From sequence record PV889368.1: a DNA stretch of 40,015 nt. One strand, given 5' to 3'. The position numbers were made by a program, and so were the translations under genes. Each line of letters begins with the position of its first letter. Position 1 is the first letter of the stretch. This DNA is from a phage. The notes beneath the pieces are model-generated. The model saw only the letters and a program-made list of their open reading frames with translations. It was not told the DNA's origin and made no database searches. Below are positions 23,882 through 40,015 of this stretch, piece by piece.

Positions 23882-23904
23882 TGAGTTGTTCTCCTTATAG
23901 TTTA

Positions 23905-26962: not shown

Positions 26963-26989
26963 GTCGGCCTCCTTAGGTCGAATTTATGG

Positions 26990-27012
26990 TTGTCCTATAG
27001 TGATAGCTTAGG
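26990..27012 (-). promoter_or_regulatory. Phage RNAP promoter (phi1.5/1.6-like)
   Basis: Minus strand CTAAGCTATCACTATAGGACAACC. Confidence 0.7.
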
Positions 27013-27049
27013 GTCAGACTGATGGCCCAGACGATAGCTTGCTAGCATA

Positions 27050-27083
27050 AGCAAAGAAACCCAGCAGTCCGAAGACCACTGGG
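27050..27083 (-). terminator. Intrinsic terminator (TE-like) for host RNAP after the ligase gene
   Basis: Minus strand CCCAGUGGUC-UUCG-GACUGCUGGG (10-bp stem, UUCG loop) followed by UUUCUUUGCUU; same position as T7 TE. Confidence 0.75.
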
Positions 27084-27094
27084 TTGACGTCTAG

Positions 27095-28159: not shown

Positions 28160-28176
28160 CGTTAGTGTCTCCAGAA

Positions 28177-28464
28177 TTAAAGGAATCGACCAGTGTAGTC
28201 GTTGAACTGTTTGTTAAACCAAGTGGCAACCGCTACTGTCTGCACATCTTCGTCATGAATATTCGGGTACTCCGTGAAGTCCTTCTCGATGAGGACCTCT
28301 TGCGTATGACTGTGGACGATAACCGCCCGGACGCAGTTCCTGTTCATCACCGGGTCAAACCAAGTGCTGACCTCTGCATTGTAGCCCGTCTCGGTCTGCC
28401 AGTTGTGGATGGCTGTACGCAGAGTGTTCATGTTGCCACTATGCGCTCTTGAGAACATGCCCAT
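28177..28464 (-). CDS. gp1.2-like (dGTPase inhibitor family)
   Basis: Position after gp1.1; weak similarity to T7 gp1.2 including HDEDV. Confidence 0.6.
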   Translation of the reverse strand: MGMFSRAHSGNMNTLRTAIHNWQTETGYNAEVSTWFDPVMNRNCVRAVIVHSHTQEVLIEKDFTEYPNIHDEDVQTVAVATWFNKQFNDYTGRFL

Positions 28465-28466
28465 GT

Positions 28467-28646
28467 TTACGCTCCTACGAAGTATTTCTCTTGGTTGACC
28501 ATAGAGTCTTTGCCTTCAGCGTTACGGAAAGCACCCTTGACACCACCGCCACGCTTGGTCTTGTTCAGCTTGCGGCCCTTCGGAATGTAATCTTCAGTCT
28601 GCTGACGTTCACGGATGCGCTCGAAGTTGATAGTGTTCTGATACAT
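28467..28646 (-). CDS. gp1.1-like small basic protein (59 aa)
   Basis: Not in the ORF track; ATG 28646 with GGAG RBS; KGRKLNKTKRG matches T7 gp1.1 KGRKLNKTKRD. Confidence 0.65.
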   Translation of the reverse strand: MYQNTINFERIRERQQTEDYIPKGRKLNKTKRGGGVKGAFRNAEGKDSMVNQEKYFVGA

Positions 28647-28684
28647 GTGGTTGAATCTCCAGTAGTTTACGTTAGGTTAGGGTT

Positions 28685-28727
28685 AATCATGAAGGCCACG
28701 ACTTTGAGTCATGACCTTGAGTCTAAT
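28685..28727 (-). promoter_or_regulatory. Conserved late intergenic element, copy 2 (candidate RNase III site, R1.1-like position)
   Basis: aatcatgaaggccac-N-catgaccttgagtctaatc; see copies at 21680 and 38668. Confidence 0.4.
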
Positions 28728-28746
28728 CCTATAGTGATAGTTTAGG
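28724..28746 (-). promoter_or_regulatory. Phage RNAP promoter (phi1.1-like)
   Basis: Minus strand CCTAAACTATCACTATAGGATTAGAC. Confidence 0.8.
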
Positions 28747-28820
28747 TTAACCTCTTCTGCGTTGGGTTAAAGTGAATACTGCGAGTGCTCCCAGCCACAG
28801 GGCCAGTAACTGTAGGTCTG

Positions 28821-29036
28821 TCATTTGGTCTGCTCCAGCTCGGACACTGCGTCTTTCAGGTATTTCTCGTGGCTAGATTCCACAAGATAGACGAGGGTCT
28901 TGAATGGGACGTTAAGCTGCTTTGACATTTCGGTAGGAATGACCGTGGTCTTCACCAGACCCTTGCCGTTGTGTTCTGTTACGGTCACGATTTGAGTCCC
29001 GCCCTTAACGCCAGCCTGCTTGTGTGCAAATTTCAT
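28821..29036 (-). CDS. Hypothetical protein (71 aa) directly after the RNAP gene; no T7 counterpart
   Basis: ATG with AGGAGAG RBS, 12 nt after the RNAP stop. Confidence 0.6.
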   Translation of the reverse strand: MKFAHKQAGVKGGTQIVTVTEHNGKGLVKTTVIPTEMSKQLNVPFKTLVYLVESSHEKYLKDAVSELEQTK

Positions 29037-29048
29037 AACTCTCTCCTG

Positions 29049-31730
29049 TTAAGCGAATGCAAAGTCTGAAGACAAGATGTCTTCGATATTCAGTTCACCT
29101 TTCTTCGGAAGCTCAGGCAACTTGTCGCGCTGACTCTCGTGAAGCTGGTATTCAAACTGCTCGTAGAAGTCAAGCAGCACATCGTTGTCGCGGTATGTCT
29201 CTACCATCGTCTCACGGACACCACGGAACAGATACTCAGCGTCAGCCGGGATGGTCCCGAAGCTATCGTGAATCACTGCGAATGACATCACACCATACTT
29301 GCGGTGCGTGTGGACTACAGTCTTGCGGAGGTGGCTACCATCTTGTGAGTGGACGAAGTTCGGGCTAATGCCTGACTCCTGCTTGTGTTTGTCCAGCTCT
29401 TTCTTTGTGCCTTTGTTGACTGTAGGCTGAAGGTTGAATGACCCTAAGAACATCAGGTTCAGACGAGTGGTATCCTTCTTGCGGTATTCCTGCCATACCG
29501 GGAAACCATCAGGTGTGACCCAGTGTACCGGAAGGCAAGGCTTCAGGATTTCACCAGTCTTCTTGTCCTTCACTTCAGCAGCCAGCAGCTTGGCAGCGCC
29601 TTGAAGCCACTTCATCGCGTCAACCGCAGCAACTACGGTCACACTCACAGCCTCCCAAATCATCTTGGCCATGAAGCGAGACGCTTGGCTTGGCTCAGTG
29701 AACATAGCGCCAGACCCTGAGTCAATCGCTGGCATTACGATGTCCTCGTAAACTTGGTCTGCGAAGCCGTACTCTTTCGACCCGTAGGCCAGAGTCATGA
29801 CCGAACGCTTAGTGACCTTGCGTGACATACCGTAAGTCAGCCACTGACGGGCCAGCTCTCGTGTCCCCAGCTTGAGACGCTCGGTAATCTCACCTGTTTT
29901 CTTGTCCTCGTGAGTCACCACCTCGTTGTCCGTACCGTTAACCAGCAGGACTTTAAGTTCCTCCTCAATGCGGTCGGACACAATGCGGTAGATGTCTTGG
30001 ACCTTACCGGATGGCGTCAGGTTTACTGCATGTCCACCGATGTGGTCACGAAGCATCGCGCTGAAGTGCTGAATCCCAGAGCATGACCCATCGAACGCTA
30101 TCGGAAGCGAGCATGAGTAAGACAATCCGTGGTGCATTACGCCAGCATACTCGAAGCAGAACGCAAGGAAGCAGAACGGAGAGTCTAACTTGCCCCACCA
30201 CTCAATGCTATCCATCGGTGCTTTGGCAGCAGCCATGATGTTGTCGTGGTTGTCTTCCACCCATTTGATGCGCTCCTCGAAGGTGACTTTATCGACACCA
30301 GCACAGTTTGCACCGTGGACCTTCAGCCATTTAAAACCATCAGCGCCAATAGGCTTGCCGACTGCCAGAGTCAGGAGACCCTTCTGCATGTCGTTGCCCT
30401 GAGGGTTGAACATCGGTACAGCGTAGACGCGGCCGCGCCAATCCATGTTATATGGGAACCATATGGCCTTGAACTGAGAGAACTTGTTTGCTTGGTTAAC
30501 GATAAAGCTCAGTGATAATCTGCGTGACTGTCTGGCCTTCTCGCGGCGATAGATACCAGCAGCAGCCTTCTTCCATGCCTTGAGTTCTTCTTCAGTCTCA
30601 CCCGCATAGTCCTCAGGCTTCAGTGGTTCCATCTGAGGGATGTCATCAATAGGCGTGTTGTTCAGCTTCTCGACCATGTTCACAACGTCCAGGACCTTCT
30701 TGTTCACTTTCCAAGGTGTACTCTGAATGATGTTCACAGCGTCGTAGACTTCAGGCATGTACACGTCTTCGTAACGTGCTACCGCAGACTTAGACCCTAA
30801 GCGAATCAGTGGTAATGGTCTGCGACCTTTGGCCCAATACCCACCACCTACGACACCCGTCCACGGCTTAGGTGGAACGACGCAAGGCTGATAGACTGGT
30901 GCGATACCCGCAAGGCTGAATCCACGTTGTGCCATCTTCTTTACCCAGAAGTCTGACAGGTGGACCATCTCAACGTCAGCCGCCGCATTGCCAGCACCAT
31001 AACGCTTAAGCTCAACCAGTTGTGTAGACTGAATGACAATCTCAAGCATCTTGATGCCAACGTGTACCGCCTCGGTAGGACTCCAAGTTCCCCAAGCATC
31101 TTCCAGTTGGCCCTGCTCCAGCATGGATGTCTCAACCGCTTGCATGTAGGCTTTCTTGTAGGATGCCCCGGCTCGCTTGTTCAGGTTCTCAGCTATCGCC
31201 TTCTTGAAGTGCTCCTGCTCCTTGTCACGGATGCGACCGAAGCGGATTTCATCTTCAAGAGTGCGACCTATCGCGGAGGCCATAGGTGTAATCGGTATCC
31301 CTTCAGGCTTGACCAGCTTAGAGAGAATGACCTTCAGTATGATAACCGCAGCAGACTCGCAGGAGATGCGCAGAGAGCGGTCCTTGACAGCCTTCCCTTC
31401 AGTGCTCAACATGGTGAACGCTACGCTCGGACGAGAGATTGACAGCTTCCCGTCTGTGCCTTCATGCCACTCCTTGACGGCTTGCGCAATCTTAGGGACC
31501 AGAGTCTGCATCAAAGGCTTGGCGACCTGATTGTCTGCCAGTTCCCCGCGCTCCGTCTGGCGCTCAAGGTTCTTGATGAAACGTCGCTCGCCTTCAGTGT
31601 ATGCCTCATGCTCAAGCTGAAGCTGTTTGACTGCAAGGTCTTGCCCGTAGTGGTCAGCCAGCAGGTTAAACGGCTCAATGGCGTTCGACACATCAGAGAA
31701 GTCGTGTTTGTCAATAGAGATGACGCTCAT
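29049..31730 (-). CDS. Single-subunit DNA-dependent RNA polymerase (gp1)
   Basis: Collinear with T7 RNAP across 893 aa, e.g. FSDV...PFN.LADHYG, RFGRIRD, PCVVPPKPWTG, AIWFPYNMDWRGRVYA, DGSCSGIQHFSAMLRD, VTKRSVMTLAYGSKE, HDSFGT, C-terminal FAFA. Confidence 0.97.
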   Translation of the reverse strand: MSVISIDKHDFSDVSNAIEPFNLLADHYGQDLAVKQLQLEHEAYTEGERRFIKNLERQTERGELADNQVAKPLMQTLVPKIAQAVKEWHEGTDGKLSISRPSVAFTMLSTEGKAVKDRSLRISCESAAVIILKVILSKLVKPEGIPITPMASAIGRTLEDEIRFGRIRDKEQEHFKKAIAENLNKRAGASYKKAYMQAVETSMLEQGQLEDAWGTWSPTEAVHVGIKMLEIVIQSTQLVELKRYGAGNAAADVEMVHLSDFWVKKMAQRGFSLAGIAPVYQPCVVPPKPWTGVVGGGYWAKGRRPLPLIRLGSKSAVARYEDVYMPEVYDAVNIIQSTPWKVNKKVLDVVNMVEKLNNTPIDDIPQMEPLKPEDYAGETEEELKAWKKAAAGIYRREKARQSRRLSLSFIVNQANKFSQFKAIWFPYNMDWRGRVYAVPMFNPQGNDMQKGLLTLAVGKPIGADGFKWLKVHGANCAGVDKVTFEERIKWVEDNHDNIMAAAKAPMDSIEWWGKLDSPFCFLAFCFEYAGVMHHGLSYSCSLPIAFDGSCSGIQHFSAMLRDHIGGHAVNLTPSGKVQDIYRIVSDRIEEELKVLLVNGTDNEVVTHEDKKTGEITERLKLGTRELARQWLTYGMSRKVTKRSVMTLAYGSKEYGFADQVYEDIVMPAIDSGSGAMFTEPSQASRFMAKMIWEAVSVTVVAAVDAMKWLQGAAKLLAAEVKDKKTGEILKPCLPVHWVTPDGFPVWQEYRKKDTTRLNLMFLGSFNLQPTVNKGTKKELDKHKQESGISPNFVHSQDGSHLRKTVVHTHRKYGVMSFAVIHDSFGTIPADAEYLFRGVRETMVETYRDNDVLLDFYEQFEYQLHESQRDKLPELPKKGELNIEDILSSDFAFA

Positions 31731-31799
31731 ACTTAAAGTCCTTGTTATTAGTCTTTCACTTAGAGTCTCTTTGGTCTTTCACTTGGAGTCTTAGACCTT

Positions 31800-31822
31800 G
31801 AGTCCTATAGTGATAGTTAAGT
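31800..31822 (-). promoter_or_regulatory. Phage RNAP promoter immediately upstream of the RNAP gene
   Basis: Minus strand GACTTAACTATCACTATAGGACTCAAGG, about 75 nt upstream of the gene 1 ATG; the leader carries a duplicated AAGTGAAAGAC. Confidence 0.7.
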
Positions 31823-31827
31823 CAGAA

Positions 31828-32220
31828 TTACTTGCATATCAGAGGGTTAGCGTGAAGATGACTGAAGTCACCGTGAGTCGTGTGCTTGATGGTCGACCGT
31901 TGGTCTATCGCCTTCCAGCCTGAGACCAGAAGTTTACCGTCGTCTGTGATTGGTCGTCCACCATACGCCAGATACATCAGCTCGGACTTATGGCCCTCGG
32001 CCCGGAGTCGTGCCTGAAGTACACGGTCTCGCTCCTGCTGTTGACGCTTAGTGTGTGATGAGTGGCGGTGTACATAAGTGCCCTTTCTCCCGGTCTTCTC
32101 CCAGTAGTTGCGGCCACGCGAGTCAGTTCCAACATACTTCCACTCTACGCCGTTCTTATCAGTGAATTTGCGAAACGCTAGGGTTGAGTCCATTGCGTGT
32201 ACCAGATTTAACATATTCAT
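31828..32220 (-). CDS. Hypothetical early protein (130 aa) where T7 has the gp0.7 kinase; no kinase motifs seen
   Basis: ATG with GGGAG RBS; TAATG overlap with the upstream ORF. Confidence 0.6.
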   Translation of the reverse strand: MNMLNLVHAMDSTLAFRKFTDKNGVEWKYVGTDSRGRNYWEKTGRKGTYVHRHSSHTKRQQQERDRVLQARLRAEGHKSELMYLAYGGRPITDDGKLLVSGWKAIDQRSTIKHTTHGDFSHLHANPLICK

Positions 32221-32417
32221 TACAGTTTACTCCCAAGTGTTGCTATATCCCAGACGTTCGCTAAGTTACGCGTGAATCGTCCGTTAGGTTGACGCACAGT
32301 CCAGCGACCCAGACGTGCATAGTTGAATTTATAGACTTTACATGCCTTGTTGATGTCTCTCACCAGCACGTAGGCGATAAGTCCATAGCCTATGGCTATC
32401 AATAGTGCAGATATCAT
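32220..32417 (-). CDS. Small early protein with an N-terminal transmembrane helix (65 aa)
   Basis: ATG start; hydrophobic N-terminus MISALLIAIGYGLIAYVLV. Confidence 0.5.
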   Translation of the reverse strand: MISALLIAIGYGLIAYVLVRDINKACKVYKFNYARLGRWTVRQPNGRFTRNLANVWDIATLGSKL

Positions 32418-32420
32418 AGC

Positions 32421-32588
32421 TTACCCCGCCAGTCCAATCCATATCAGTAGACCGCGCACGACCCCTACCGGAGAGAATATTATATCCACTGCCAGCCAGC
32501 CAAGACGCAGTGCATTCCCATCAGCTATGACCGCAGTCAGCCAAGACAGAATGATGGTGACGTAAAGTGCGATGACTGTAAGTTTCAT
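32421..32588 (-). CDS. Small early membrane protein (55 aa, two predicted TM helices)
   Basis: Not in the ORF track; ATG 32588 with AGGAG RBS; MKLTVIALYVTIILSWLTAVIADG...VGVVRGLLIWIGLAG. Confidence 0.45.
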   Translation of the reverse strand: MKLTVIALYVTIILSWLTAVIADGNALRLGWLAVDIIFSPVGVVRGLLIWIGLAG

Positions 32589-32594
32589 AGTTAA

Positions 32595-32660
32595 CTCCTA
32601 TCAATTTAAGTGATAATCTTTGAGGCCACATATCAGTTAGATGACCTCTCGTCTATCACT
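32595..32660 (-). promoter_or_regulatory. Conserved early intergenic element, copy D
   Basis: Shares ...gaggccac...atcagt...gacct...tctatcactc... with copies at 33045, 33785 and 34375; lies in the 5' leader of the downstream ORF. Confidence 0.4.
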
Positions 32661-32661
32661 C

Positions 32662-33039
32662 CTACACTTCCACTGCGATGGTTGTCATCTTGGTCACAGT
32701 AAGACCACCAGCAAGCTCAACAGCATAGCGTATCGCCTCGTCTTTGGACCTGAAATCTTTTCCAGCAAGGTGGTAAATATCGCCGTTTATTACTTTGGTC
32801 GGCTTGCGGCTGACTGCTATGGCGTTGCTGAGGGAAAGCTCGCCTTTCGACCACTGAGAGTGCCAGCGAAGCACGCTCTTACTGGATACGTTGAAGTCAC
32901 TTGCCACCATCTCAAGCATGGAGTCAAGTCGAGAGGTGCCATATTGAGGCTGGCGCACCAAGTCGTATGCCTGTGCTACTCGGATTTTAAACTCTACAGA
33001 ATACTGATTGCGGGTCTTAGGTTGTGCTGGTGTAAACAT
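32662..33039 (-). CDS. Early protein with a transposase-type helix-turn-helix-like N-terminus (125 aa)
   Basis: ATG with AAGGA RBS; YSVEFKIRVAQAY....YGTS......VSSKSVLRWHSQW resembles IS3-OrfA-type HTH (from memory, unverified). Confidence 0.55.
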   Translation of the reverse strand: MFTPAQPKTRNQYSVEFKIRVAQAYDLVRQPQYGTSRLDSMLEMVASDFNVSSKSVLRWHSQWSKGELSLSNAIAVSRKPTKVINGDIYHLAGKDFRSKDEAIRYAVELAGGLTVTKMTTIAVEV

Positions 33040-33044
33040 TTGGC

Positions 33045-33125
33045 ATTCCTTCTGGTTAATTTAAATTAAGTGACAATCAGTCAGGCCACCAGCATTGATG
33101 ACCTGTAGTCTATCACTCAGCGTGC
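33045..33125 (-). promoter_or_regulatory. Conserved early intergenic element, copy C
   Basis: ttaatttaaattaagtgacaatcagtcaggccacc...gacctgtagtctatcactcag. Confidence 0.4.
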
Positions 33126-33262
33126 AAGCTGCCGAGTATACTCTTGCGGCCCTTATAGACCGCTTTCAGGAGACGCATAGCCACATCGTGGTTTAACTGC
33201 CCGGTCTTGACCATAAGCCGGGCGTTGTTGACGTGATGCTGGCAGAGACCATAAGTTACCAT
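33116..33262 (-). CDS. gp0.4-like small protein (48 aa; T7 gp0.4 is an FtsZ inhibitor)
   Basis: Not in the ORF track; ATG overlaps the ocr stop (TAATG); MVTYGLCQHH...AMRLLKAVYKG..SILGSLHG resembles T7 gp0.4 ..VQYGLTAQ...AMAQLKELYEN..AIALESAE. Confidence 0.55.
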
Positions 33263-33771
33263 TACTCGCAGTCCTCTTCAGCAGCCGCAGGGTCGAACAC
33301 TACGTTATCGTTGACGTCTTCGACCTTCAGGTGGCGACCAATCGCATAGTGGTCTTTGGCACATGCGGTAGCGACCTCAAGAGACACAGCTTGCTCAATT
33401 ATTGCTCCTGTTTTAGCGTCAACTACCCAATACTCAGCCTCTTCGTCGCTCTCTTCAGCCTCAAACCATACCACATCCGAGCTATTAGACACATCGTTAT
33501 ACAGTGCCTCATAGATACGAGCTTGCAGTATACGCGTCACATCCTTGGTCTCAGGCATCAGCCCAGAGTCTTCAAACTCATGGTCAATACCATCAGCAGC
33601 CATCACCGTGAAAATCTCGTGGTAATAGTGCGGTACCTGACCGTCTACGACCTCATGCAGCGCATCATGGTAGTCGTCACCTTCAGCTATTTCGTCGTAC
33701 TGAATGCGCTCGTTAAATGCTTCAACAGTTGCAGCCAGCAGGTCATAGTATGCGCTAGCGTTACGTTCCAT
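33262..33771 (-). CDS. ocr: Ocr-like DNA mimic (gp0.3 family), 169 aa with an extended C-terminus
   Basis: [53 protein letters not shown] closely matches T7 Ocr [53 protein letters not shown]; about 50 aa longer than T7 Ocr (117 aa). Confidence 0.9.
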   Translation of the reverse strand: [169 protein letters not shown]

Positions 33772-33784
33772 AGTTATATCCTCT

Positions 33785-33860
33785 CAAAGTTAATTATGTG
33801 TGTGTTAGTGACTATCAGTCAGGCCGCTATGAGTCTAACGACCTGTAGTTAATCACTAGA
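33785..33860 (-). promoter_or_regulatory. Conserved early intergenic element, copy B (ocr leader)
   Basis: ctctcaaagttaattatgtgtgtgttagtgactatcagtcaggcc...gacctgtagttaatcact; near-identical to copy A. Confidence 0.45.
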
Positions 33861-34134
33861 AGGCTACATCTTTAAGCGCGTTCTTGAGCATGGTCTCTAT
33901 GTTTGAATCATTCACGTTGGTCATATACCCACCCACCTCTTGCACTTCCGCATTGTTGCTGGTGATTAATTCCTGCGCCTTTTTATGGCCCACTCCATGA
34001 TAGCAATCCCACACGAAGCGCTTGAACGTTAGACCCTTCTCTTTGTAGAGCGCGGCGGAGTCCGCCACTCCACGCAATAATCTTGATTCTAACTCCTTGC
34101 GGAAGGCGTCTGCTGTAGCTTTGTTCAGTCTCAT
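33856..34134 (-). CDS. Hypothetical early protein (92 aa) upstream of ocr
   Basis: ATG with AAGAGGA RBS, 12 nt after the upstream ORF. Confidence 0.6.
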   Translation of the reverse strand: MRLNKATADAFRKELESRLLRGVADSAALYKEKGLTFKRFVWDCYHGVGHKKAQELITSNNAEVQEVGGYMTNVNDSNIETMLKNALKDVAF

Positions 34135-34145
34135 AATGAATCCTC

Positions 34146-34352
34146 TTAGTAAATGTAAGTTTCGACACTATCAATGATTACGAAATGCTGTGGGCGGCGA
34201 CTATTGAAGTCTACAAGCATTACTTGCAACCACTTACCGTTAATCTTAACTTTGTAGTTAGAGTAAGCCTGGCCTTTAACCATATCTTCAGTAGTTACTT
34301 TAACCTTGCGGCATTCCAGTTTAACAGTCTTCTCTTTATCTGCGTAGAACAT
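34146..34352 (-). CDS. Hypothetical early protein (68 aa), first gene of the early operon
   Basis: Start moved to ATG 34352 (MFYADKEK...) with GAGAGGA RBS inside conserved element A. Confidence 0.55.
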   Translation of the reverse strand: MFYADKEKTVKLECRKVKVTTEDMVKGQAYSNYKVKINGKWLQVMLVDFNSRRPQHFVIIDSVETYIY

Positions 34353-34374
34353 ACTAAATCCTCTCAAAGTTAAT

Positions 34375-34450
34375 TGTGTGTTAGTGACTATCAGTCAGGG
34401 CCTTCAGATGTAGACTCAAAGACCCTGTAGTTAGTCGCTATCGGCGCACA
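34375..34450 (-). promoter_or_regulatory. Conserved early intergenic element, copy A
   Basis: cctctcaaagttaattgtgtgttagtgactatcagtcagggcc...gaccctgtagttagtcgct. Confidence 0.45.
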
Positions 34451-34550
34451 TTAAGAGTTTATCCAGATTGTTAAAGAGCATTCGCGTTGGCTGTCGTCGC
34501 CGTGCTATCCCGTTTCAGTGTTGGGACTCACCGTCGTTTCAGTGTGGTAC

Positions 34551-34579
34551 AGCTTACAGCTTTTAAAGGAGGCTGTCAA
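34551..34579 (-). promoter_or_regulatory. Candidate host sigma70 early promoter (A-type), proximal
   Basis: Minus strand TTGACA, 17-nt spacer, TAAGCT, then GTACCAC; resembles T7 A2/A3 (TTGACA...TAAGAT). Confidence 0.5.
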
Positions 34580-34697
34580 CCTGTTATTCTTTTATGCGGT
34601 GAGTGACCGAATTCGACTCACAGCTGGTGCCTTATCCTTGGCTGGTCTCGGGCAGGCTTCTCGGTTCCTATCCCTACGCCATCTTGCTACGTGGTAC

Positions 34698-34727
34698 ATA
34701 CTACTTTAAGTCGGTACTACTTGTCAA
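34698..34727 (-). promoter_or_regulatory. Candidate host sigma70 early promoter (A-type), distal
   Basis: Minus strand TTGACA, 18-nt spacer, TAGTAT, then GTACCAC; same downstream GTACCAC as the proximal copy. Confidence 0.5.
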
Positions 34728-34939
34728 CTACTTTCTGTCATCTGCCTGTTGTTCGTATGACTTATCAGGCTGTCTACTTAACCGGGATGACCCGGCGTCT
34801 TCACTATCCGGTTGTTGCCGTGTCGTGTTGACGGAAGCTATTAAGCCACAGTCGATACCTATAGTCAATAGTCAATTTGAAATAATATTGATTAAGCTAT
34901 CGTCGGCCTCATAGTGACTAAGAAGATAGTCTTTGACTA

Positions 34940-35460
34940 ACATGTATTTGACCTTAAGTCTATAGCTTTGTGTCTATTAACTGTAGGTCTTTGACTGTAG
35001 GTTAATCGGATTAACTGGTAGATGACGTAAGGTTGATGACTTGAGGTGATAGGTTGATACAGATAGAGACTCAGAGAAGACAAATAGTCCCAACCTATCG
35101 TCTCAGCCCCAACCGATAGTCATGACCTATCGTTGACCTGAAGTCTTGACCATCGGTCCAACCTTATGATAGACTGGGGTGGGCCTTTGGTCTGGACTAA
35201 AAGAGGGCCTATGGGGAGACTTGAGGTTCTTGAACTGTGAGATGTGGTCTCAAACTTTTGGTCCAAAACTCATCGAAGACTGTAGGTGGCAGCTACTGTA
35301 GGTCAAGGACCGTAGGTCAGGCGACACTAGGATAGACCAATAAGTAGGATGACCCTAAGTGAGCTTCTATTAAGGTGTTACCTAAAGTCCTTGACTACAG
35401 TAGCTAAGGTCAGTAGAGTGAGTCTTTATCCACGTACTGACCTTAGGTCTTCAGCCTTCG
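34940..35460. repeat. Non-coding region rich in short dispersed repeats; likely contains the genome termini / concatemer junction
   Basis: Many copies of CTGTAGGTC, ACCGTAGGTC, CCTTAGGTC, CCTAAAGTCC and similar within ~500 bp lacking ORFs, placed between the phiOR/19.5 end and the early promoters, as with T7 terminal short repeats. Confidence 0.5.
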
Positions 35461-35509
35461 CCATAACCGATCATACTACCTCCTTTCATGAATCGTTACC
35501 ATGATTGCG

Positions 35510-35668
35510 TTAATTACACTGAGAGACCAGAGAACATACGAGAGTCTCGACCCTCCCGACCCACTGACTTCCAGCAGTAACGCCAGCAGCAAGTAGAACA
35601 GCAGCAAGAAACCTGTATGTAGCTCGATTGGTCGCCAGAGCTTTAAGTACAGCTTTGGTCTTTGCCAT
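35510..35668 (-). CDS. gp19.5-position small protein (52 aa)
   Basis: Not in the ORF track; ATG 35668 with AGGAGG RBS, downstream of the phiOR-like promoter; hydrophobic middle segment. Confidence 0.4.
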   Translation of the reverse strand: MAKTKAVLKALATNRATYRFLAAVLLAAGVTAGSQWVGRVETLVCSLVSQCN

Positions 35669-35816
35669 ATGCTACATACCTCCTGTATCTATGGTCGGTG
35701 ACTATCTGTATTGGAGGGTGATATTAATCATAATCCCTCCGACTATATGGAGACCTAGAGTCCTTACCTATATGCTAACTTTTAGTCGGCATACTATAAG
35801 GTCCCCCCGGTCCCCC

Positions 35817-35839
35817 CATCCCTATAGTGATAGTTAAGT
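35817..35839 (-). promoter_or_regulatory. Phage RNAP promoter (phiOR-like) near the right genome end
   Basis: Minus strand CTTAACTATCACTATAGGGATGGGGGG, flanked by the direct repeat GGGGGGACCGGGGGGACC. Confidence 0.8.
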
Positions 35840-35852
35840 TAACCTATTGAAT

Positions 35853-36395
35853 TTACTTGTGGTTTCTATGGGTCCTATCACGCTTAGGGGACCGTCGGTT
35901 TACTGCGTATTCCTTGTGCTTCTCAGTGCGTAGAGCATCAAGCCACACCTCTAGTTCCTCTATTGAATCTGAGGTCTTCGTGAAGCACTTACCTTGTAGG
36001 CGCAACTGAGCGCGATACTTTCCGGTAGGCTTGAAAAAGCTGATACCTTTGGGTAGACCATTAGTCTCGCCACCTCCTGAGTTCCATCTGTTCTCTAATG
36101 CTGTTACTAACCTGTAGTTATCTGGCCTGTCGTCAAGTCTATCACCATTGATATGGTCAACCATCATGCCAGAAGGTATACGACCCACTACTAGGCTGTA
36201 GATGATTCTGGCACGCCTATAGCGGCTACCAAGAACCTTCACGATTGCGTACCCAGACGGATGGACTGAATGTCCCATGACCTCGCCTGGCTTCTTGTTA
36301 GAGCCTTTATAGGGCTTCTTGCACACCAACTCACCATCTACATAAGCATAGTGATTAAAGAGGGCCACCCTGTCGATGGCCTTCTGTTTACTCAT
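35853..36395 (-). CDS. HNH homing endonuclease with an AP2-like DNA-binding domain (180 aa)
   Basis: HNH motif region VDHINGDRLDDRPDNYRLVTALENRWN; GISFFKPTGKYRAQLRLQGK resembles an AP2 domain; ATG with GGAGGA RBS 14 nt after the terminase stop. Confidence 0.8.
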   Translation of the reverse strand: MSKQKAIDRVALFNHYAYVDGELVCKKPYKGSNKKPGEVMGHSVHPSGYAIVKVLGSRYRRARIIYSLVVGRIPSGMMVDHINGDRLDDRPDNYRLVTALENRWNSGGGETNGLPKGISFFKPTGKYRAQLRLQGKCFTKTSDSIEELEVWLDALRTEKHKEYAVNRRSPKRDRTHRNHK

Positions 36396-36408
36396 GTTTC
36401 TCCTCCTA

Positions 36409-38172
36409 TTAGTGGAACGTAACGTATGACCCTAGTCCCATCTCGTCGTCCGTATCGTGAGTTACCCGGACCCCATTGTCCCAGAACTCAGTGTGGATGG
36501 ACTCGAATCCTTTACGTGGGTTCTCCATCTGTTCCTCCAGCCATTCCTCAGTGACTTCACGTTCGCCTTTGTTGGCATCCTTAGCCATAGACTCAACGAA
36601 GAACTGTACACCGATAGCCAGCGCATCAAGTCGGTCATCGTGTGCCAAGGCTCCACGTTCACGAGAGATACGGGTCATCTGGTAGAAGAGAGAGTAGATA
36701 GGGTTACGAACACCATCCTTATCAGAGGCTGACTGATAGTCTTGGACGATAGCAGCAGCGTTGACGATAAGTCGGTGAGACCCCATGATAGGCTCCAGAA
36801 CGTCGCAGATGCGGAGTTCCTTCTGACCCTTACTCTTCACTTCTGTTACAGCAGCAGGATGGATACGGGCCGCTACAGGCTTGAATAGCTCAAGGTACAT
36901 ACCATCACCGAAGTTACCCTCAATGACGTATTCGTTGACCTTCCACTTACGACCAATCTTAGCCAAGGCTTCCAGAGTAGAGTCTTCATAACCACCACGC
37001 ATACCACCCACTTCCATAGCGAAGATGTAGCCGTTGAGCTGATACAGTACCGCATATCCAGTTTCATCCTTACCACGACCACTGGGGTCAATGACCAGAA
37101 TCTTCTGGGTGTATGAACTGAAGGCAGAACCTACAGTCTGATACGTGTGGTACGAGTCACCCATAAGTCCAACGTTAGGAACGTCCTCACGCTTGTTCTG
37201 AGGGTTCGGCAACCATTGGTAGACCATTGGGCTGGACTCTGGGTCCAAGTCTGCTACGATAAGGTCACGTAGCTTCAGAGGGTACTTCTCAGCATCACTC
37301 AGGTTCGGGTTAAGCATGAACTGTAGAGCGAAGCCAGCTTTACCGTATGACAGCTCACGTTCCTTCAGGTCCGTATCATCAAATCGTACCTCATCGGTCG
37401 GACGCCAGTAGAAGGACTCAGGGTCCTCTTCTAGTTCTGCCTGAAGCATAGGAGCCAGACGGTCGCCGTAAGACTGCCAGTCCTTCCTGTCGCGTGGATA
37501 ACGAGCGGGCCAAATAGTAGTGGTATACCCACGACCTTCCAGCTCACGATACAGGGTCATCTCGTTCTGAGGAGTACCCAGATAGATGATTGTACCTCCC
37601 GGCTTCAGGATAGCGTCGAACTCTTTCACAAGCTCTGACAGTCGGTCTCGCGCAGCCTGAGTCGCAGAGTTGTTAGGAACCTCCACGTCATCGGCAATCA
37701 GGATGTCAGCACGGCTACCAGTCAACTGACCAGTGATACCAACTGACTTAACAGAAGGTGAGTGGTCTGGCTTGGCTGGCCCAACGTCGAAGCTGATAAC
37801 CGCATCCCGCTGTCCCTGCTTAGGTTTGAGTTCCTGAAGCTGAGGCATGAGGTCGATGATTCGCTTGATGAAGATGGAGTTAGCATCGGCTCGCTCCTTT
37901 GAGGCCGACACAATCATGAACTTCAAGTCTGGGTTGTTCCATAGCTTCCAGACCACGAAGGCACACGTAATGAAGGACTTCCCGATACCACGGAACGCCT
38001 GTAGGATGAAACGCCTGTTGTCCCCAGCCGATAGTTTCTTCGCCATGTCAATCTGACAGCGAGTCGGGACTGGGAGTGACAGAGCTTTCCATAGAACGAA
38101 CAGGAAGAACACGAAGTCTGCCTTCATACGGGCAGTCATTAGCGCCTGACGCGCCACTAAGTCTTTACTCAA
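36409..38172 (-). CDS. Terminase large subunit (gp19)
   Basis: [128 protein letters not shown] match T7 gp19; probable TTG start with AAGGAGG RBS. Confidence 0.95.
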
Positions 38173-38618
38173 TGCTTCACCTCCTTATCTTGCTGCAAGG
38201 CTCTAACGGTGTCCTGAAGGGCATTAATCCACTTGTCTCCTTTCAGTCCGATGGCGATAAGACGTTTAGCATCTCGTTCGTCAAGTTCGGCGTAACCATT
38301 AATGACGCATCTACCGTCACTTTGCGTGGTTCCACTCGTGGGTTTGACTCGGATGCGCAGCCGCTTATTGTCAGACTGAAGGTCAGAAATAATCCTATCA
38401 GTGCTGCCTTCCAGCGAGGACATTTCGTCCTGAAACCGCTTGGACACTTTGTTGACTTCAGCTTGGACAGCAAGCCTTGTATCTTCCGATGCCTTAAGAT
38501 TCGAGGTGTATTCTGCATTGACCTTAGCCTCCCACTTATTGTTAGCGGTGTGGTAGCCACCAGCAAACATCACTGCTGCAAGTAACCACGGAGCCGCTCT
38601 CTTTAAAAATTTGAGCAT
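38169..38618 (-). CDS. i-spanin (gp18.5, Rz-like)
   Basis: N-terminal TM segment [11 protein letters not shown] followed by a charged coiled-coil-like periplasmic domain; position as T7 18.5. Confidence 0.8.
38243..38518 (-). CDS. o-spanin (gp18.7, Rz1-like) embedded in +1 frame within gp18.5
   Basis: Lipobox LTISGC within [26 protein letters not shown], similar to T7 gp18.7; start ambiguous (ORF track begins at 38566). Confidence 0.65.
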   Translation of the reverse strand: MQNTPRILRHRKIQGLLSKLKSTKCPSGFRTKCPRWKAALIGLFLTFSLTISGCASESNPRVEPRKVTVDASLMVTPNLTNEMLNVLSPSD

Positions 38619-38667
38619 AGTTGCCCTCCCGGTTTATCAGATTTCACGTAGAGTCGCCTCCACTAGT

Positions 38668-38715
38668 TAGTGTTAACCATAAAGGCCACTACATATAGTA
38701 ATGACCTTGAGTCTA
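38668..38715 (-). promoter_or_regulatory. Conserved late intergenic element, copy 3 (candidate RNase III site, R18.5-like position)
   Basis: aaccataaaggccac-N-taatgaccttgagtctaaca. Confidence 0.4.
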
Positions 38716-38719
38716 ACAC

Positions 38720-38983
38720 TTATTGAACACCATACCCTGTGTCATTATCCTCAGTCGCTGAAAGCACCTTATCGTACTCTGCGTTAAGGGCCTCCATATC
38801 AGCCAGCGTCTTCTCGTCCACAGACACCTTGCTTAACACAAAGTTGTGACGAGCTAGTAGCTTCTCAATGGCGTTGTAGAGCTGAGGTGAACGCTTAGAG
38901 TCATCCCGCAGATCTTGCAGCATGAGTCGAGCACGTTCAGTATCTAGCATTAAGAGGAACTTCTCTAAGTCCATCTGCGTCAT
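38720..38983 (-). CDS. Terminase small subunit (gp18)
   Basis: FLLMLDTERARLMLQDLRDDSKRSPQLYNAIEKLLARH resembles T7 gp18 FLEMLDTAMAQRMLADLSDHERRSPQLYNAIKLLDRH. Confidence 0.85.
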   Translation of the reverse strand: MTQMDLEKFLLMLDTERARLMLQDLRDDSKRSPQLYNAIEKLLARHNFVLSKVSVDEKTLADMEALNAEYDKVLSATEDNDTGYGVQ

Positions 38984-39174
38984 GTTTTACCACCTCCTTT
39001 AATCGTTTTGTAGACTAGCACACCAATCTGGACAACGGTGTATGCAATAGCTGCAACGTAGAACCATTCGTTCAGTGTAAGTCCGAAGAAGAACCGACTG
39101 GCACCATCAGCCGCAGCGGTCCCGACTATAGGAGAGGCTTTAAGGACCTCATTCTTGAAGTCTAACTCAATCAT
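38980..39174 (-). CDS. Holin (gp17.5)
   Basis: MIELDFKNEVLKASPIVGTAAADGASRFFFGLTLNEWFYVAAIAYTVVQIG closely matches T7 gp17.5. Confidence 0.92.
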   Translation of the reverse strand: MIELDFKNEVLKASPIVGTAAADGASRFFFGLTLNEWFYVAAIAYTVVQIGVLVYKTIKGGGKT

Positions 39175-39298
39175 AAAACCTCCAGTTTAAAGCTGGTCGT
39201 CCGTGACCAAAAGTTGTTACCATACGTTGGTCAGCTTGTAGTTAGCCTCTACCTTCACAACCCTCGATGACGACATTCCGTTTTGATGATAGAACTAA

Positions 39299-39312
39299 CC
39301 CTCCGAAGAGGG
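39299..39312 (-). terminator. Stable UUCG-tetraloop hairpin just downstream of the tail fiber stop (possible RNA 3' stability element or weak terminator)
   Basis: Minus strand CCCUC-UUCG-GAGGG; no strong U-tract follows. Confidence 0.3.
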
Positions 39313-39319
39313 AAATAAA

Positions 39320-40015
39320 TTAAACCACCATATACCTAAAACTAGCCCCCGACCCAGCAGGAGAACCAGAAGCTGTAGCTATAGTACAAGAGCCGTTATT
39401 AACTGCTGATACGTAGGCATTTGCCAATGCCCCATTTGCATTAGCGGGTACAAGGATTATATGTGACCAAACATTTATGTTTGCGTCCACTATATTTGCC
39501 GTGGAGTTTCCGGCTAAGCCATTGAAGCCGCGCATATGGAGTGGTTTTTCGGGGTCCAATTGGACGTTTCTAAGTATGAACTTTCCTGTCCCTACGGCGT
39601 TTAGCCTGGTCTTGTTGTTGGCGTTGCTTGTTAAGTCGCCATTCGTTAGCGTTAACGTAGAGTTAAAAGCTGTTACGTGGGCGGAGCCGGGGTCTTTAAC
39701 TATGAAGTTGTCAACACTATTGTTATCAGCGCCGTCTGATTGGTTTATGCCTACACCCGCTGGATTTATTACGGTTGCCGATAGTACACGGTTGTTATTG
39801 CTGTTGGCTGCGAACTGGAAACCGTTAGCAGCGGAGTTAATGCTAATGATACAATCAATCACATTGTACTCGGAAGGTGAACTAGGACGGCCTAATCCGA
39901 CGCTTCCAAAATACTTGTTTCTAATAACCTTGATAGTACCAGCATGACTATAACGACAGTCAAAGCCACCCCCGCTTGCACCAGAGTTCTCTACGTTAGC
40001 ATACAGTAGGTTATT
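39320..40015 (-). CDS. Tail fiber/tailspike gp17, 3' portion (C-terminal Asn/Gly/Ser/Ala/Val-rich beta-helix-like domain); 39889..40015 duplicates 1..127
   Basis: Same frame as the ORF leaving the window at position 1; composition and repeated N.V.N / N-G-S patterns suggest a right-handed beta-helix tailspike domain (inference); stop at 39322..39320. Confidence 0.8.
   Translation of the reverse strand, partial: NNLLYANVENSGASGGGFDCRYSHAGTIKVIRNKYFGSVGLGRPSSPSEYNVIDCIISINSAANGFQFAANSNNNRVLSATVINPAGVGINQSDGADNNSVDNFIVKDPGSAHVTAFNSTLTLTNGDLTSNANNKTRLNAVGTGKFILRNVQLDPEKPLHMRGFNGLAGNSTANIVDANINVWSHIILVPANANGALANAYVSAVNNGSCTIATASGSPAGSGASFRYMVV
39889..40015. repeat. 127-bp exact duplicate of positions 1..127 (circular-assembly overlap, not a biological terminal repeat)
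   Basis: The text at 39889..40015 is identical to 1..127 and lies inside the gp17 coding sequence. Confidence 0.9.

What the first reader, a model, noticed from the sequence alone, without database searches (positions are those of the whole stretch)
34450..35852. Genome-end region: tandem early promoters, short-repeat arrays, G-rich direct repeat at phiOR
About 1.4 kb with almost no coding capacity. It contains two sigma70-like promoters with a shared downstream GTACCAC, a duplicated CACTGAAACG, dense short repeats of the CTGTAGGTC/CCTAAAGTC type (34940..35460) and GGGGGGACCGGGGGGACC immediately downstream of the phiOR start. The true terminal repeat and packaging/concatemer-processing signals should lie here but cannot be delimited from a single collapsed copy.
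Basis: partly seen in the sequence, partly recalled or inferred. Interest (0 to 1): 0.4.

Follow-up and report, generated by a model that had tools for sequence, protein, structure and literature searches.

The report
T7-like phage genome-end (concatemer junction) region
This stretch is the ordinary, already well-described "genome end" control region of a T7-like (K1F-type) coliphage, and its 178-bp terminal repeat can be placed by comparison with relatives whose DNA ends were mapped.

Summary
The window is a circularly permuted Kayfunavirus (K1F-like, T7 group) genome with its genes on the minus strand. Positions 34450-35852 are its concatemer-junction and early-control region.

In minus-strand order the region holds:
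- the last phage-RNAP promoter, phiOR (+1 at 35822);
- a conserved hairpin;
- gene 19.5 (35668-35510);
- the right short-repeat array (35460-35243);
- the single collapsed direct terminal repeat (35242-35065, right edge uncertain by about 5 nt);
- an invariant ATCTGTA, matching 6 of 7 bases of the T7 "CJ" class II pause signal;
- the left short-repeat array (35057-34940);
- three host promoters, not two, colinear with T7 A1/A2/A3;
- a perfect rrn-type boxA and an RNase III-type stem.

The repeat can be delimited by homology. Relatives with mapped or read-predicted ends (K1F, SH3, Peacock and others) start exactly at TCTCACAG.

Two things are particular to this phage. One is a G6-ACC-G6 allele after phiOR, shared only with a lineage that carries a 180-aa HNH endonuclease gene. 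The other is a flipped hairpin loop.

The architecture is already known, so interest is low.

The parts
35817..35839 (-). phiOR, the last phage-RNA-polymerase promoter (-17..+6; +1 = 35822)
   Evidence: The core ACTATCACTATAGG occurs 11 times on the minus strand, 8 of them exact, against 3.0 matches expected on both strands together. All copies lie in intergenic positions. This copy sits after gene 19 and the HNH gene and before gene 19.5, as T7 phiOR does.
35800..35817 (-). G-rich tandem 9-mer GGGGGGACC x2 in the initially transcribed region (+6..+23) of phiOR
   Evidence: TRF reports period 9, 2.0 copies, 100% match. JSS1 has the identical sequence. Emlis, Zappy, Ro45lw and CHRF_30001 have two G5-G7 runs with variable linkers. 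Nine phages with the K1F-type phiOR flank have AGACCCCCGGTTAC instead.
35713..35740 (-). Conserved hairpin GGAGGG-16 nt-CCCTCC upstream of gene 19.5; its loop is inverted in this phage
   Evidence: RNA dG -12.7, z -2.7; DNA z -2.7. The stem covaries across relatives: GGAGGG/CCCTCC, GGAGGT/ACCTCC and GAGGGT/ACCCTC. T7 has GGTGAT-14-ATCACC at the same position. The loop is the exact reverse complement of the loop in every K1F-type relative compared.
35510..35668 (-). Gene 19.5 (52 aa, small hydrophobic protein)
   Evidence: ORF found. It matches phrog_2193 at E 6.5e-24 over its full length. Relatives annotate it as gp19.5. Nucleotide identity is 98% across 10 phages.
35243..35460 (-). Right short-repeat array (T7 SRR equivalent) with strong dyad symmetry
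   Evidence: It holds six CYTNNRGT copies. As single-stranded DNA it folds at -38.2 kcal/mol, z -5.1. The two-hairpin pattern is kept in Ro45lw, z -3.4. T7 SRR has CCTAAGG/CCTAAAG copies.
35404..35446 (-). Perfect 12-bp inverted repeat CTAAGGTCAGTA / TACTGACCTTAG with a 19-nt loop, at the start of the right array
   Evidence: Reported as I13. RNA dG -20.5, z -3.5; DNA z -4.3. The arms are invariant in 10 phages, which show two unrelated loop sequences.
35291..35402 (-). About 26-bp imperfect inverted repeat (arms 35402-35378 and 35317-35291) inside the right array
   Evidence: Pairs I6 and I17; this is the long stem in the fold. Its centre lies about 104 nt left of the terminal repeat. T7 has a 10-bp dyad about 113 nt left of its repeat.
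35256..35268 (-). Palindrome TTTTGG-A-CCAAAA, 14-26 nt left of the terminal repeat
   Evidence: Coordinates. It is invariant in the 10-phage alignment. Its thermodynamic signal is weak, z -1.4 to -1.6.
35065..35242 (-). Direct terminal repeat, one collapsed copy (TCTCACAG...CTCTGAGTCTCT); the right edge is uncertain by 1-5 nt
   Evidence: K1F's exact 178-bp end duplication maps to 35242-35066. Annotated terminal repeats at record positions 1 to 177-184 in EPr2, GA2A, SH3, Vec13, EcoDS1, Peacock and Penshu1 align to the same interval. T7's repeat aligns colinearly and starts with the same TCTCACAGT. The window holds a single copy.
35058..35064 (-). ATCTGTA, a concatemer-junction (CJ) class II pause-like motif directly abutting the repeat
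   Evidence: It is invariant in 10 of 10 phages. T7 has ATCTGTT at nt 161-167 in the same register. PE3-1 and EcoDS1 annotate this spot as 'concatemeric junction'. The literature describes the class II signal as ATCTGTT.
34940..35057 (-). Left short-repeat array (T7 SRL equivalent), hypervariable in copy number
   Evidence: It holds four CYTNNRGT copies. The proximal part, 35057-35005, is only 25% identical to relatives because units of the ACCTACAGTC(TCACTA) type are gained and lost; this phage has the shortest array among the ten compared. T7 SRL has 12 CCTAAAG-type copies.
34832..34868 (-). Host (sigma70) promoter, T7 A1 homologue: TTGACT-17-CTTAAT, +1 about 34832
   Evidence: It aligns with T7 A1 and with the first 'host RNAP promoter' annotated in EcoDS1. 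The -10 hexamer is weak, so the scan did not call it.
34690..34727 (-). Host promoter, A2 position: TTGACA-18-TAGTAT-GTACCAC
   Evidence: It scores 10/12 in the scan. It aligns with EcoDS1's second annotated host promoter.
34543..34579 (-). Host promoter, T7 A3 homologue: TTGACA-17-TAAGCT-GTACCAC-A(+1)
   Evidence: It aligns with T7 A3, including the identical GTACCAC and the downstream TGAAACGAC.GTGAGTC. It also aligns with EcoDS1's third annotated promoter.
34511..34544 (-). Duplicated CACTGAAACG in the A3 leader (34544-34535 and 34520-34511)
   Evidence: (D20). T7 has CACATGAAACG and CACACTGAAAGG in the same register. The function is unknown.
34468..34480 (-). rrn-type boxA TGCTCTTTAACAA in the early leader
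   Evidence: It is the only match in the window to the gamma-proteobacterial boxA consensus GYTCTTTAANA, against 0.09 expected. The consensus comes from PMC5725501. The sequence is identical in T7, K1F and EcoDS1.
34382..34440 (-). RNase III-type stem-loop at the T7 R0.3 position, just upstream of the first early gene (ATG at 34352)
   Evidence: RNA dG -22.9, z -3.2. It is colinear with the T7 region before gene 0.3. R0.3 is named as an element of the left end of T3 and T7 in PMC3276506. No Rfam family matched.

Best explanation
Window 34450-35852, read on the minus strand, is the concatemer-junction and early-control region of a K1F-like (Kayfunavirus, T7 group) phage. The assembly is circular and holds one collapsed copy of the genome's direct terminal repeat.

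The virion DNA most likely starts at 35242 (TCTCACAG...). It most likely ends with a second copy of 35242-35065, about 178 bp.

Proposed working, by analogy with T7:
1. Replication joins genomes head to tail through one shared repeat.
2. Late transcription by the phage RNA polymerase from phiOR (+1 at 35822) and from upstream promoters runs through gene 19.5, the right repeat array and the terminal repeat.
3. The polymerase pauses at the ATCTGTA motif that abuts the repeat. The paused polymerase-lysozyme complex recruits terminase (gp18/gp19) and a prohead.
4. Cuts at the two conserved repeat boundaries, plus DNA synthesis that duplicates the repeat, give unit genomes.
5. On infection the left end enters first. 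Three host promoters lie 411, 553 and 700 bp from the predicted end. Together with a boxA element and an RNase III site they drive and process early transcription.

Shown here: the anatomy, its colinearity with T7, and the correspondence of the repeat boundaries to relatives' ends. Inferred: the pausing, the terminase recruitment, any role of the short repeats and hairpins, and the physical ends of this particular phage.
For: Identity of the phage:
- The window is 94-95% identical over 91-93% of 25 kb to Kayfunavirus phages pO2, P762, ST31 and JSS1.
- The region itself is 89-93% identical to ST31, ZH4 and others.

Terminal repeat:
- K1F's exact 178-bp end duplication maps to 35242-35066.
- At least ten records start at query base 1 and annotate a repeat of 177-184 bp.
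- SH3's ends were sequenced by run-off from virion DNA. The same paper cites 179 bp for K1F.
- Peacock and Penshu1 ends were predicted by PhageTerm.
- The repeat's two edges are conserved even in T7: TCTCACAGT, CCCCATAGG and TCTCTG.GTC.CTATCTGT. Its interior is much less well conserved.
- Within Kayfunavirus the first 60 nt are 98% identical and the ATCTGTA motif 100%.

Colinearity with T7:
- T7 39761..250 aligns with window 35259..34969.
- T7 432..871 (the A1-A3 region) aligns with 34898..34422.
- T7's annotated phiOR, 19.5, A1, A2, A3 and 0.3 come in the same order.

Other elements:
- Three host promoters are annotated at the same places in EcoDS1.
- The phage promoter consensus is strongly over-represented and phiOR matches it exactly.
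- The short repeats are enriched and strand-biased.

Mechanism from the literature:
- The class II signal ATCTGTT occurs at the T7 concatemer junction.
- The repeat must be duplicated, and a hairpin intermediate has been seen in T7.
Against: - No read or virion-end data exist for this phage, so the ends rest on homology alone.
- Some relatives' records were probably oriented by homology to T7 or K1F and are not independent evidence.
- The right edge differs among relatives: K1F 178, EcoDS1 178, Peacock 179, SH3 184.
- The pause motif is ATCTGTA, not the T7 motif ATCTGTT. For T7 RNAP any base change is reported to abolish class II termination. ATCTGTW is not over-represented in the genome, with 8 matches against 11.6 expected, so its significance rests only on position and conservation.
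- There is no phiOL-type phage promoter between the repeat and A1, unlike T7.
- One relative, ZG49, is deposited with a different 401-bp 'terminal repeat'.
Confidence: 0.9

Rival explanations
1. The true terminal repeat is a longer, roughly 400-bp segment that starts upstream of gene 19.5 and ends inside the right repeat array, as deposited for phage ZG49. It would correspond to about window 35745-35350.
For: The ZG49 record has an exact 401-bp prefix/suffix identity covering that segment. Its announcement states '401-bp long terminal repeats'.
Against: The ZG49 ends come from a SPAdes/GapFiller assembly with no end mapping. The duplicated block includes a coding gene and stops in the middle of the array. 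In ZG49 itself the K1F-type repeat lies internally at 492-670. More than ten other relatives, including run-off and PhageTerm data, agree on TCTCACAG as base 1.
Confidence: 0.03
2. The phage has no fixed ends (headful, circularly permuted packaging), and the region is only an intergenic regulatory zone.
For: The assembly is circular, with a 127-bp end overlap, and contains a single copy of the segment.
Against: Short-read assemblers routinely collapse direct terminal repeats into circles. Every characterised member of the T7 group has exact direct terminal repeats. The segment aligns to mapped ends of close relatives.
Confidence: 0.02
3. The short-repeat arrays and hairpins flanking the repeat are not packaging or processing signals. 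They are neutral slippage-prone spacer DNA, or they serve another role such as DNA entry or spacing of the promoters from the end. On this view only the repeat edges and the ATCTGTA motif matter.
For: The proximal left array is hypervariable in copy number and is shortest in this phage. Yersinia T7-like phages vary from 11 to 34 repeats at the same place without obvious cost. The hairpin loop can be inverted, and the loop of the 12-bp inverted repeat can be replaced.
Against: Arrays of the same motif type in the same orientation flank the repeat in both T7 and Kayfunavirus despite little sequence identity. The arms of the 12-bp inverted repeat and the distal left array are 88-100% conserved. 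The right array folds far better than shuffles do, z -5.1.
Confidence: 0.35

Closest known systems
Bacteriophage T7 concatemer junction and left-end control region (phiOR, gene 19.5, SRR, 160-bp terminal repeat, CJ pause site, SRL, A1/A2/A3, R0.3)
   Same: The order of all elements is the same. The repeat starts with the same TCTCACAGT and ends with the same TCTCTG.GTC.CT|ATCTGT. Arrays of CCTA-type 7-9-mers flank the repeat in direct orientation. A hairpin with an AT-rich loop lies between phiOR and 19.5. A3 shares GTACCAC and the duplicated GAAAC motif, and both have boxA and an RNase III-type stem.
   Different: - The repeat is about 178 bp, not 160 bp, and its interior aligns only weakly with T7's.
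- The motif is CCTACAGTC rather than CCTAAAG.
- The pause motif is ATCTGTA, not ATCTGTT.
- There is no phiOL promoter and no homologue of the leftward A0.
- The right array has much stronger dyad symmetry.
- An HNH endonuclease gene sits between gene 19 and phiOR.
- The first early gene encodes a 68-aa protein that matched no Pfam or PHROG family, Ocr included.
Genome ends of Kayfunavirus phages K1F, EcoDS1, SH3 and Peacock
   Same: The repeat is 89-93% identical and has the same boundaries. The 'concatemeric junction' motif is the same, and EcoDS1 has the same three host promoters.
   Different: - This phage has the HNH-linked phiOR-proximal allele with G6-ACC-G6.
- It has an inverted hairpin loop.
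- It has the shortest left array of the ten phages compared.
- K1F lacks the A2-to-A3 segment, so the two promoters are fused there.
Class II (sequence-specific) pause/termination signals of T7 RNA polymerase (PTH, VSV, CJ)
   Same: [quoted passage not shown]
   Different: The seventh base is A, not T. No pausing data exist for K1F-type polymerases, so the motif works 'like' CJ only by position and conservation.

Membership tests
T7-group (Studiervirinae) concatemer junction / direct-terminal-repeat genome end | A non-coding direct terminal repeat of about 150-250 bp lying between gene 19.5 and the early host promoters | tested here: met
   Window 35242-35065 aligns to the annotated or mapped repeats of K1F, EcoDS1, SH3, Peacock, EPr2 and GA2A. 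Its flanks match the T7 order.
T7-group (Studiervirinae) concatemer junction / direct-terminal-repeat genome end | The repeat is physically present at both ends of virion DNA (sharp termini, two-fold coverage) | not testable with these tools
   Only a collapsed circular assembly is available, with a 127-bp overlap and a single copy of the repeat. No reads are available.
T7-group (Studiervirinae) concatemer junction / direct-terminal-repeat genome end | Arrays of short direct repeats on both sides of the terminal repeat (SRR and SRL) | tested here: met
   There are six copies to the left of the repeat and four to the right, strand-biased and enriched about 15- to 50-fold. The T7 arrays were shown.
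T7-group (Studiervirinae) concatemer junction / direct-terminal-repeat genome end | A phage-RNAP promoter (phiOR) upstream of gene 19.5, reading towards the junction | tested here: met
   It matches the genome's own promoter consensus exactly; +1 is at 35822.
T7-group (Studiervirinae) concatemer junction / direct-terminal-repeat genome end | A cluster of strong host promoters within the first 1 kb of the left end | tested here: met
   Three promoters lie 411, 553 and 700 bp from the predicted end. They are colinear with T7 A1/A2/A3 and with EcoDS1's annotated promoters. Only A2 passes the generic consensus scan.
Class II pause/termination signal of T7-type RNA polymerase (CJ) | The exact heptamer ATCTGTT on the non-template strand | tested here: not met
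   The sequence is ATCTGTA, 6 of 7. For T7 RNAP any change is reported to abolish termination.
Class II pause/termination signal of T7-type RNA polymerase (CJ) | The heptamer is preceded by A, C or T and lies at the right edge of the concatemer junction | tested here: met
   The sequence is T-ATCTGTA, directly after the repeat, in the same register as in T7. It is invariant in 10 phages.
Class II pause/termination signal of T7-type RNA polymerase (CJ) | The polymerase pauses or terminates 6-8 nt downstream | not testable with these tools
   This needs in vitro transcription with the phage's own RNA polymerase.
rrn-type boxA (NusB/NusE site) | A match to the consensus GYTCTTTAANA in a transcribed leader | tested here: met
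   GCTCTTTAACA at 34479-34469 is the only match in the window, against 0.09 expected. The consensus was taken from PMC5725501.
rrn-type boxA (NusB/NusE site) | Nus-factor binding or an antitermination effect | not testable with these tools
CSB II-like hybrid G-quadruplex primer-forming element (considered for the G-rich repeat) | Two long G runs on the non-template strand shortly after a single-subunit-RNAP promoter | tested here: met
   G6-ACC-G6 lies at +7..+21. These are two of only four G6 runs in 40 kb. Two G5-G7 runs are kept in five related alleles with different linkers.
CSB II-like hybrid G-quadruplex primer-forming element (considered for the G-rich repeat) | Transcription-dependent R-loop or termination and priming of replication | not testable with these tools
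   There is no biochemical assay here. The element is absent from most Kayfunavirus genomes, so it is not essential to the genus.

The most novel reading that the evidence does not exclude
The G6-ACC-G6 element at +7 to +21 of phiOR may act like mitochondrial CSB II. In T7, to my recollection, phiOR doubles as a secondary replication origin and is needed for plasmid packaging. On this reading, transcription by the T7-type polymerase forms an RNA:DNA hybrid G-quadruplex with the G-rich non-template strand. That would stall or terminate transcription and leave a stable R-loop. The R-loop would prime the DNA synthesis needed to duplicate the terminal repeat. The element travels with a 180-aa HNH homing endonuclease cassette. 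Two G5-G7 runs are kept across five alleles with different linkers.
Probability: 0.06. Interest if true: 0.55.

Novelty: already known. Interest (0 to 1): 0.15.

Why it matters
The main value is practical. The result lets this genome be re-opened at its true left end (35242, minus strand). It also lets the collapsed repeat be restored: unique length 40015 - 127 = 39,888 bp, plus about 178 bp, gives about 40,066 bp of virion DNA. The regulatory elements can then be annotated correctly.

Biologically the result adds little. It does show which parts of the junction are under constraint across Kayfunavirus and T7: both repeat edges, the ATCTGT motif and the arms of the inverted repeats. It also shows which parts are free to vary: array copy number, loop sequences and the repeat interior. 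That is a useful guide for experiments on how T7-like phages duplicate and cut their terminal repeats. [quoted passage not shown]

Tried and rejected
- Rfam: a permissive scan of 34200-36000 gave no hit. No curated RNA family covers the hairpins or the RNase III-type stem.
- Generic promoter scan: it called only A2 on the sense strand. Its three other hits lie inside the repeat arrays and the terminal repeat and are by-products of the TTGACC/TACAGT repeat motif. A1 and A3 had to be established by homology.
- ATCTGTW counts: there is no genome-wide enrichment or avoidance, so the motif cannot be argued from statistics.
- ZG49's 401-bp 'terminal repeat': I rejected it as an assembly overlap.
- Flipped hairpin loop: a scan of the viral contig collection found no other example, so the flip looks private to this phage.
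- G-rich segment as a conventional RNA hairpin: its folding is no better than shuffled sequence, z -0.5.
- Scholl & Merril 2005 (the K1F paper) is not held in the library. A search for 'pacB' returned only PacBio papers. I could not verify where the T7 'hairpin end' of Chung et al. 1990 maps, so I do not assign it to any of the three dyads found here (35446-35404, 35402-35291, 35268-35256).
Full report
WHAT THE WINDOW IS. The ORF map shows one long co-directional gene set on the minus strand. It includes an 893-aa single-subunit RNA polymerase and a 587-aa terminase. A 25-kb segment is 94-95% identical, over 91-93% of its length, to Kayfunavirus (K1F-like, Studiervirinae) coliphages such as pO2, P762, ST31 and JSS1. 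The finding's region is 89-93% identical to ST31, ZH4 and others. The first 127 bases of the window equal the last 127. That is the signature of a circularised short-read assembly, so the record is a permuted circle and the region of interest lies in its interior.

CHECK OF THE OBSERVATION.
- Two TTGACA promoters are each followed by GTACCAC after the -10 hexamer, at 34727-34690 and 34579-34543.
- CACTGAAACG occurs twice, 24 nt apart.
- The tandem 9-mer GGGGGGACC x2 lies at 35817-35800.
- The short repeats are real. CCTAMRGT occurs 6 times in 34940-35460 against 0.12 expected from the rest of the genome. CYTNNRGTC occurs 10 times against 0.69. Both are strongly biased to the sense strand. I chose these motifs after looking at the sequence, so the P values are generous.
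- The region is not quite non-coding. It contains gene 19.5, a 52-aa protein at 35668-35510 that matches phrog_2193 over its full length (E 6.5e-24).

DELIMITING THE TERMINAL REPEAT. It can be, by homology.
- The K1F record carries an exact 178-bp duplication at its two ends. That sequence maps to window 35242-35066.
- I searched this 177-bp segment against 50,697 phage records. At least ten independent records align their base 1 with query base 1, and they annotate a terminal repeat of 177-184 bp. These are EPr2, GA2A, SH3, K1F, Vec13, EcoDS1, Peacock and Penshu1, among others.
- SH3's ends were determined by run-off sequencing from virion DNA. The same paper cites 179 bp for K1F.
- Peacock's and Penshu1's ends are PhageTerm predictions from reads.
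- The left boundary, TCTCACAG, is identical in all of them and in T7.
- The right boundary varies by 1-5 nt between annotations: K1F ends at ...GAGTCTC, EcoDS1 and Peacock include one more T, and SH3 includes TATCT.
- By register with T7, whose repeat ends ...GTCCCT|ATCTGTT, I place the right edge at 35065.
- The window holds one copy. By inference, the virion DNA should be about 39,888 + 178 = 40,066 bp.

ANATOMY FROM PHIOR TO THE REPEAT (minus-strand order).
- The genome's own phage-promoter core ACTATCACTATAGG occurs 11 times on the sense strand, 8 of them exact, against 3 matches expected on both strands together. The copy with +1 at 35822 is the last one, after gene 19 and an HNH endonuclease gene (35853-36395, PF13392). 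It corresponds to T7 phiOR.
- A 6-bp-stem hairpin lies at 35740-35713, about 45 nt before gene 19.5. Its stem covaries among relatives: GGAGGG/CCCTCC, GGAGGT/ACCTCC and GAGGGT/ACCCTC. T7 has GGTGAT-14-ATCACC at the same position.
- The gene 19.5 block is 97-98% identical across ten phages, well above its flanks.
- The right repeat array (35460-35243) opens with a perfect 12-bp inverted repeat at 35446-35404. Its arms are invariant and relatives show two unrelated loops. RNA z is -3.5 and DNA z is -4.3.
- The array also contains a roughly 26-bp imperfect inverted repeat. The whole array folds as single-stranded DNA with z -5.1. That pattern is kept in the more distant Ro45lw (z -3.4) and is weaker in T7 (z -2.3).
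- An invariant palindrome, TTTTGG-A-CCAAAA, lies 14-26 nt before the repeat.

ANATOMY FROM THE REPEAT TO THE FIRST EARLY GENE.
- ATCTGTA (35064-35058) comes directly after the repeat. It is invariant in all ten aligned phages and sits in the register of T7's ATCTGTT at nt 161-167.
- PE3-1 and EcoDS1 annotate exactly this spot as 'concatemeric junction'.
- The left repeat array (35057-34940) follows. Its proximal half is only 25% identical among close relatives, because ACCTACAGTC-type units are gained and lost. This phage has the shortest version among the ten compared. The same copy-number variation is reported for Yersinia T7-like phages.
- Three host promoters follow, not two. They are A1 (34868-34832, TTGACT-17-CTTAAT), A2 (34727-34690) and A3 (34579-34543). 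They are colinear with T7 A1/A2/A3 and with the three 'host RNAP promoter' features of EcoDS1. Their start sites lie 411, 553 and 700 bp from the predicted left end. In T7 the figures are 498, 626 and 750.
- The shared GTACCAC is the T7 A3 segment between the -10 hexamer and +1. The duplicated CACTGAAACG is also present in T7.
- Further on lies a perfect rrn-type boxA, GCTCTTTAACA. It is the only match in the window, against 0.09 expected.
- An RNase III-type stem-loop (z -3.2) sits at the T7 R0.3 position.
- Then comes the first early gene, with its ATG at 34352. It encodes a 68-aa protein with no Pfam or PHROG match.
- There is no phiOL-type phage promoter between the repeat and A1.

HOW IT MOST LIKELY WORKS. 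The anatomy and its colinearity with T7 are shown here. The mechanism is carried over from T7.
- In T7, concatemers share one repeat between genomes.
- The junction carries a class II signal, ATCTGTT.
- The repeat has to be duplicated during processing, and a hairpin DNA intermediate has been seen.

The conservation pattern here fits that model. Both edges of the repeat and the ATCTGT motif are conserved even between T7 and this genus. The repeat interior and the array copy number are free to vary.

The weak point is that the heptamer's last base is A, not T. For T7 polymerase any change is said to abolish class II termination. The motif is therefore a CJ-like signal by position and conservation. 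It is not a proven member of the class II family.

I could not verify from held papers where the T7 hairpin end maps. I therefore do not assign it to any one of the three dyads.

WHAT IS PARTICULAR TO THIS PHAGE.
(1) The sequence from the HNH gene through phiOR to about 35741 is a distinct allele found in only about 15 records. An HNH endonuclease is annotated under the match in eight of them, and each of the five I fetched carries a 543-bp (180-aa) gene at that position.
   - In this allele the initially transcribed region has two G5-G7 runs with variable linkers. JSS1 is identical to the window.
   - Emlis and Zappy have G5-ACCTA-G5, Ro45lw has G5-ACTACA-G7 and CHRF_30001 has G5-ACTACA-G5.
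   - Phages with the K1F-type phiOR flank have AGACCCCCGGTTAC.
   - The two G6 runs are half of all G6 runs in the genome.
   - The PE3-1 record is broken inside this repeat.
(2) The 16-nt loop of the 35740-35713 hairpin is the exact reverse complement of the loop in every K1F-type relative compared, including JSS1, which is 98.6% identical over the phiOR-proximal 141 bp. No other example was found in the viral contig collection. A flip between short inverted arms suggests, but does not prove, that this sequence forms a hairpin in DNA in vivo.

COMPARISON, NOVELTY AND SCORE. The closest known system is the T7 concatemer junction and left-end control region. Within the genus, EcoDS1 already carries annotations for the terminal repeat, the concatemeric junction and the three host promoters. 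The finding is therefore an instance of an already known architecture in a phage about 94% identical to deposited genomes.

The most novel reading the data do not exclude is that the G6-ACC-G6 element behaves like mitochondrial CSB II. There, transcription by a single-subunit polymerase forms an RNA:DNA hybrid G-quadruplex that terminates transcription and makes a replication primer. I give that a probability of about 6%. The element is absent from most of the genus, so it cannot be essential. Overall interest is low, at 0.15.

Noticed in passing
window 1-127 and 39889-40015: The first 127 bases are identical to the last 127. This is a circular-assembly overlap, and 127 is a typical largest k-mer for SPAdes. 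The unique genome length is therefore 39,888 bp before the second copy of the terminal repeat is added.
   Followed up: partly
window 35713-35740 (-): The 16-nt hairpin loop ATTATGATTAATATCA is the exact reverse complement of the loop TGATATTAATCATAAT in every K1F-type relative compared, while the 6-bp arms are unchanged. This is a private loop 'flip', probably arising from template switching at a DNA hairpin. No second example turned up in the viral contig collection.
   Followed up: yes
window 35741-36395 (-): A 180-aa HNH endonuclease gene (PF13392) sits between gene 19 and phiOR. A divergent block runs from this gene through phiOR to just before the hairpin. About 15 phage records share that block. 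It looks like a homing-endonuclease cassette with a co-converted flank that includes the G-rich phiOR leader.
   Followed up: partly
window 35510-35717 (-): Gene 19.5 and its 45-nt leader are 97-98% identical at the nucleotide level across ten phages whose flanks are 25-90% identical. This suggests constraint beyond coding, or recent homogenisation by recombination.
   Followed up: no
window 34468-34480 (-): A perfect rrn-type boxA (TGCTCTTTAACAA) lies in the early leader and is identical in T7, K1F and EcoDS1. It implies that Nus factors load onto host-polymerase early transcripts. None of the records examined annotates it.
   Followed up: partly
L005 (K1F) 560-620 versus window 34716-34562: K1F lacks the roughly 150-bp segment between the A2 -35 hexamer and the A3 -10 hexamer. 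It therefore has a single fused A2/A3 promoter, whereas this phage and EcoDS1 have both promoters.
   Followed up: no
L003/L004 (ZG49, KX669227.5): The published '401-bp long terminal repeat' of ZG49 starts upstream of gene 19.5 and stops inside the right repeat array. The K1F-type repeat lies internally at 492-670. The published repeat is most likely an assembly overlap rather than the true ends.
   Followed up: yes
L001/L002 (PE3-1, KJ748011.1) record ends: The PE3-1 record is opened inside the G-rich repeat. It ends ...GGGATGGGGGG and starts GGGGGGACC.... This suggests the G runs disturb sequencing or assembly and can be mistaken for an end.
   Followed up: no
window 35447-35509 (-): A strong ribosome-binding site (GAAAGGAGGTAGT) is followed by only a 7-codon ORF (MIGYGEG*). 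K1F has a 22-codon ORF at this position, and most relatives have deleted the whole segment. It looks like a decaying mini-gene between 19.5 and the repeat array.
   Followed up: no
window 34146-34352 (-): The gene in the 0.3 position encodes a 68-aa protein with no Pfam or PHROG match. It is neither an Ocr nor a SAMase homologue. Relatives carry different genes at this position (Ocr-like in K1F, PH1061 and Baskent), so the first early slot is a swap site.
   Followed up: no
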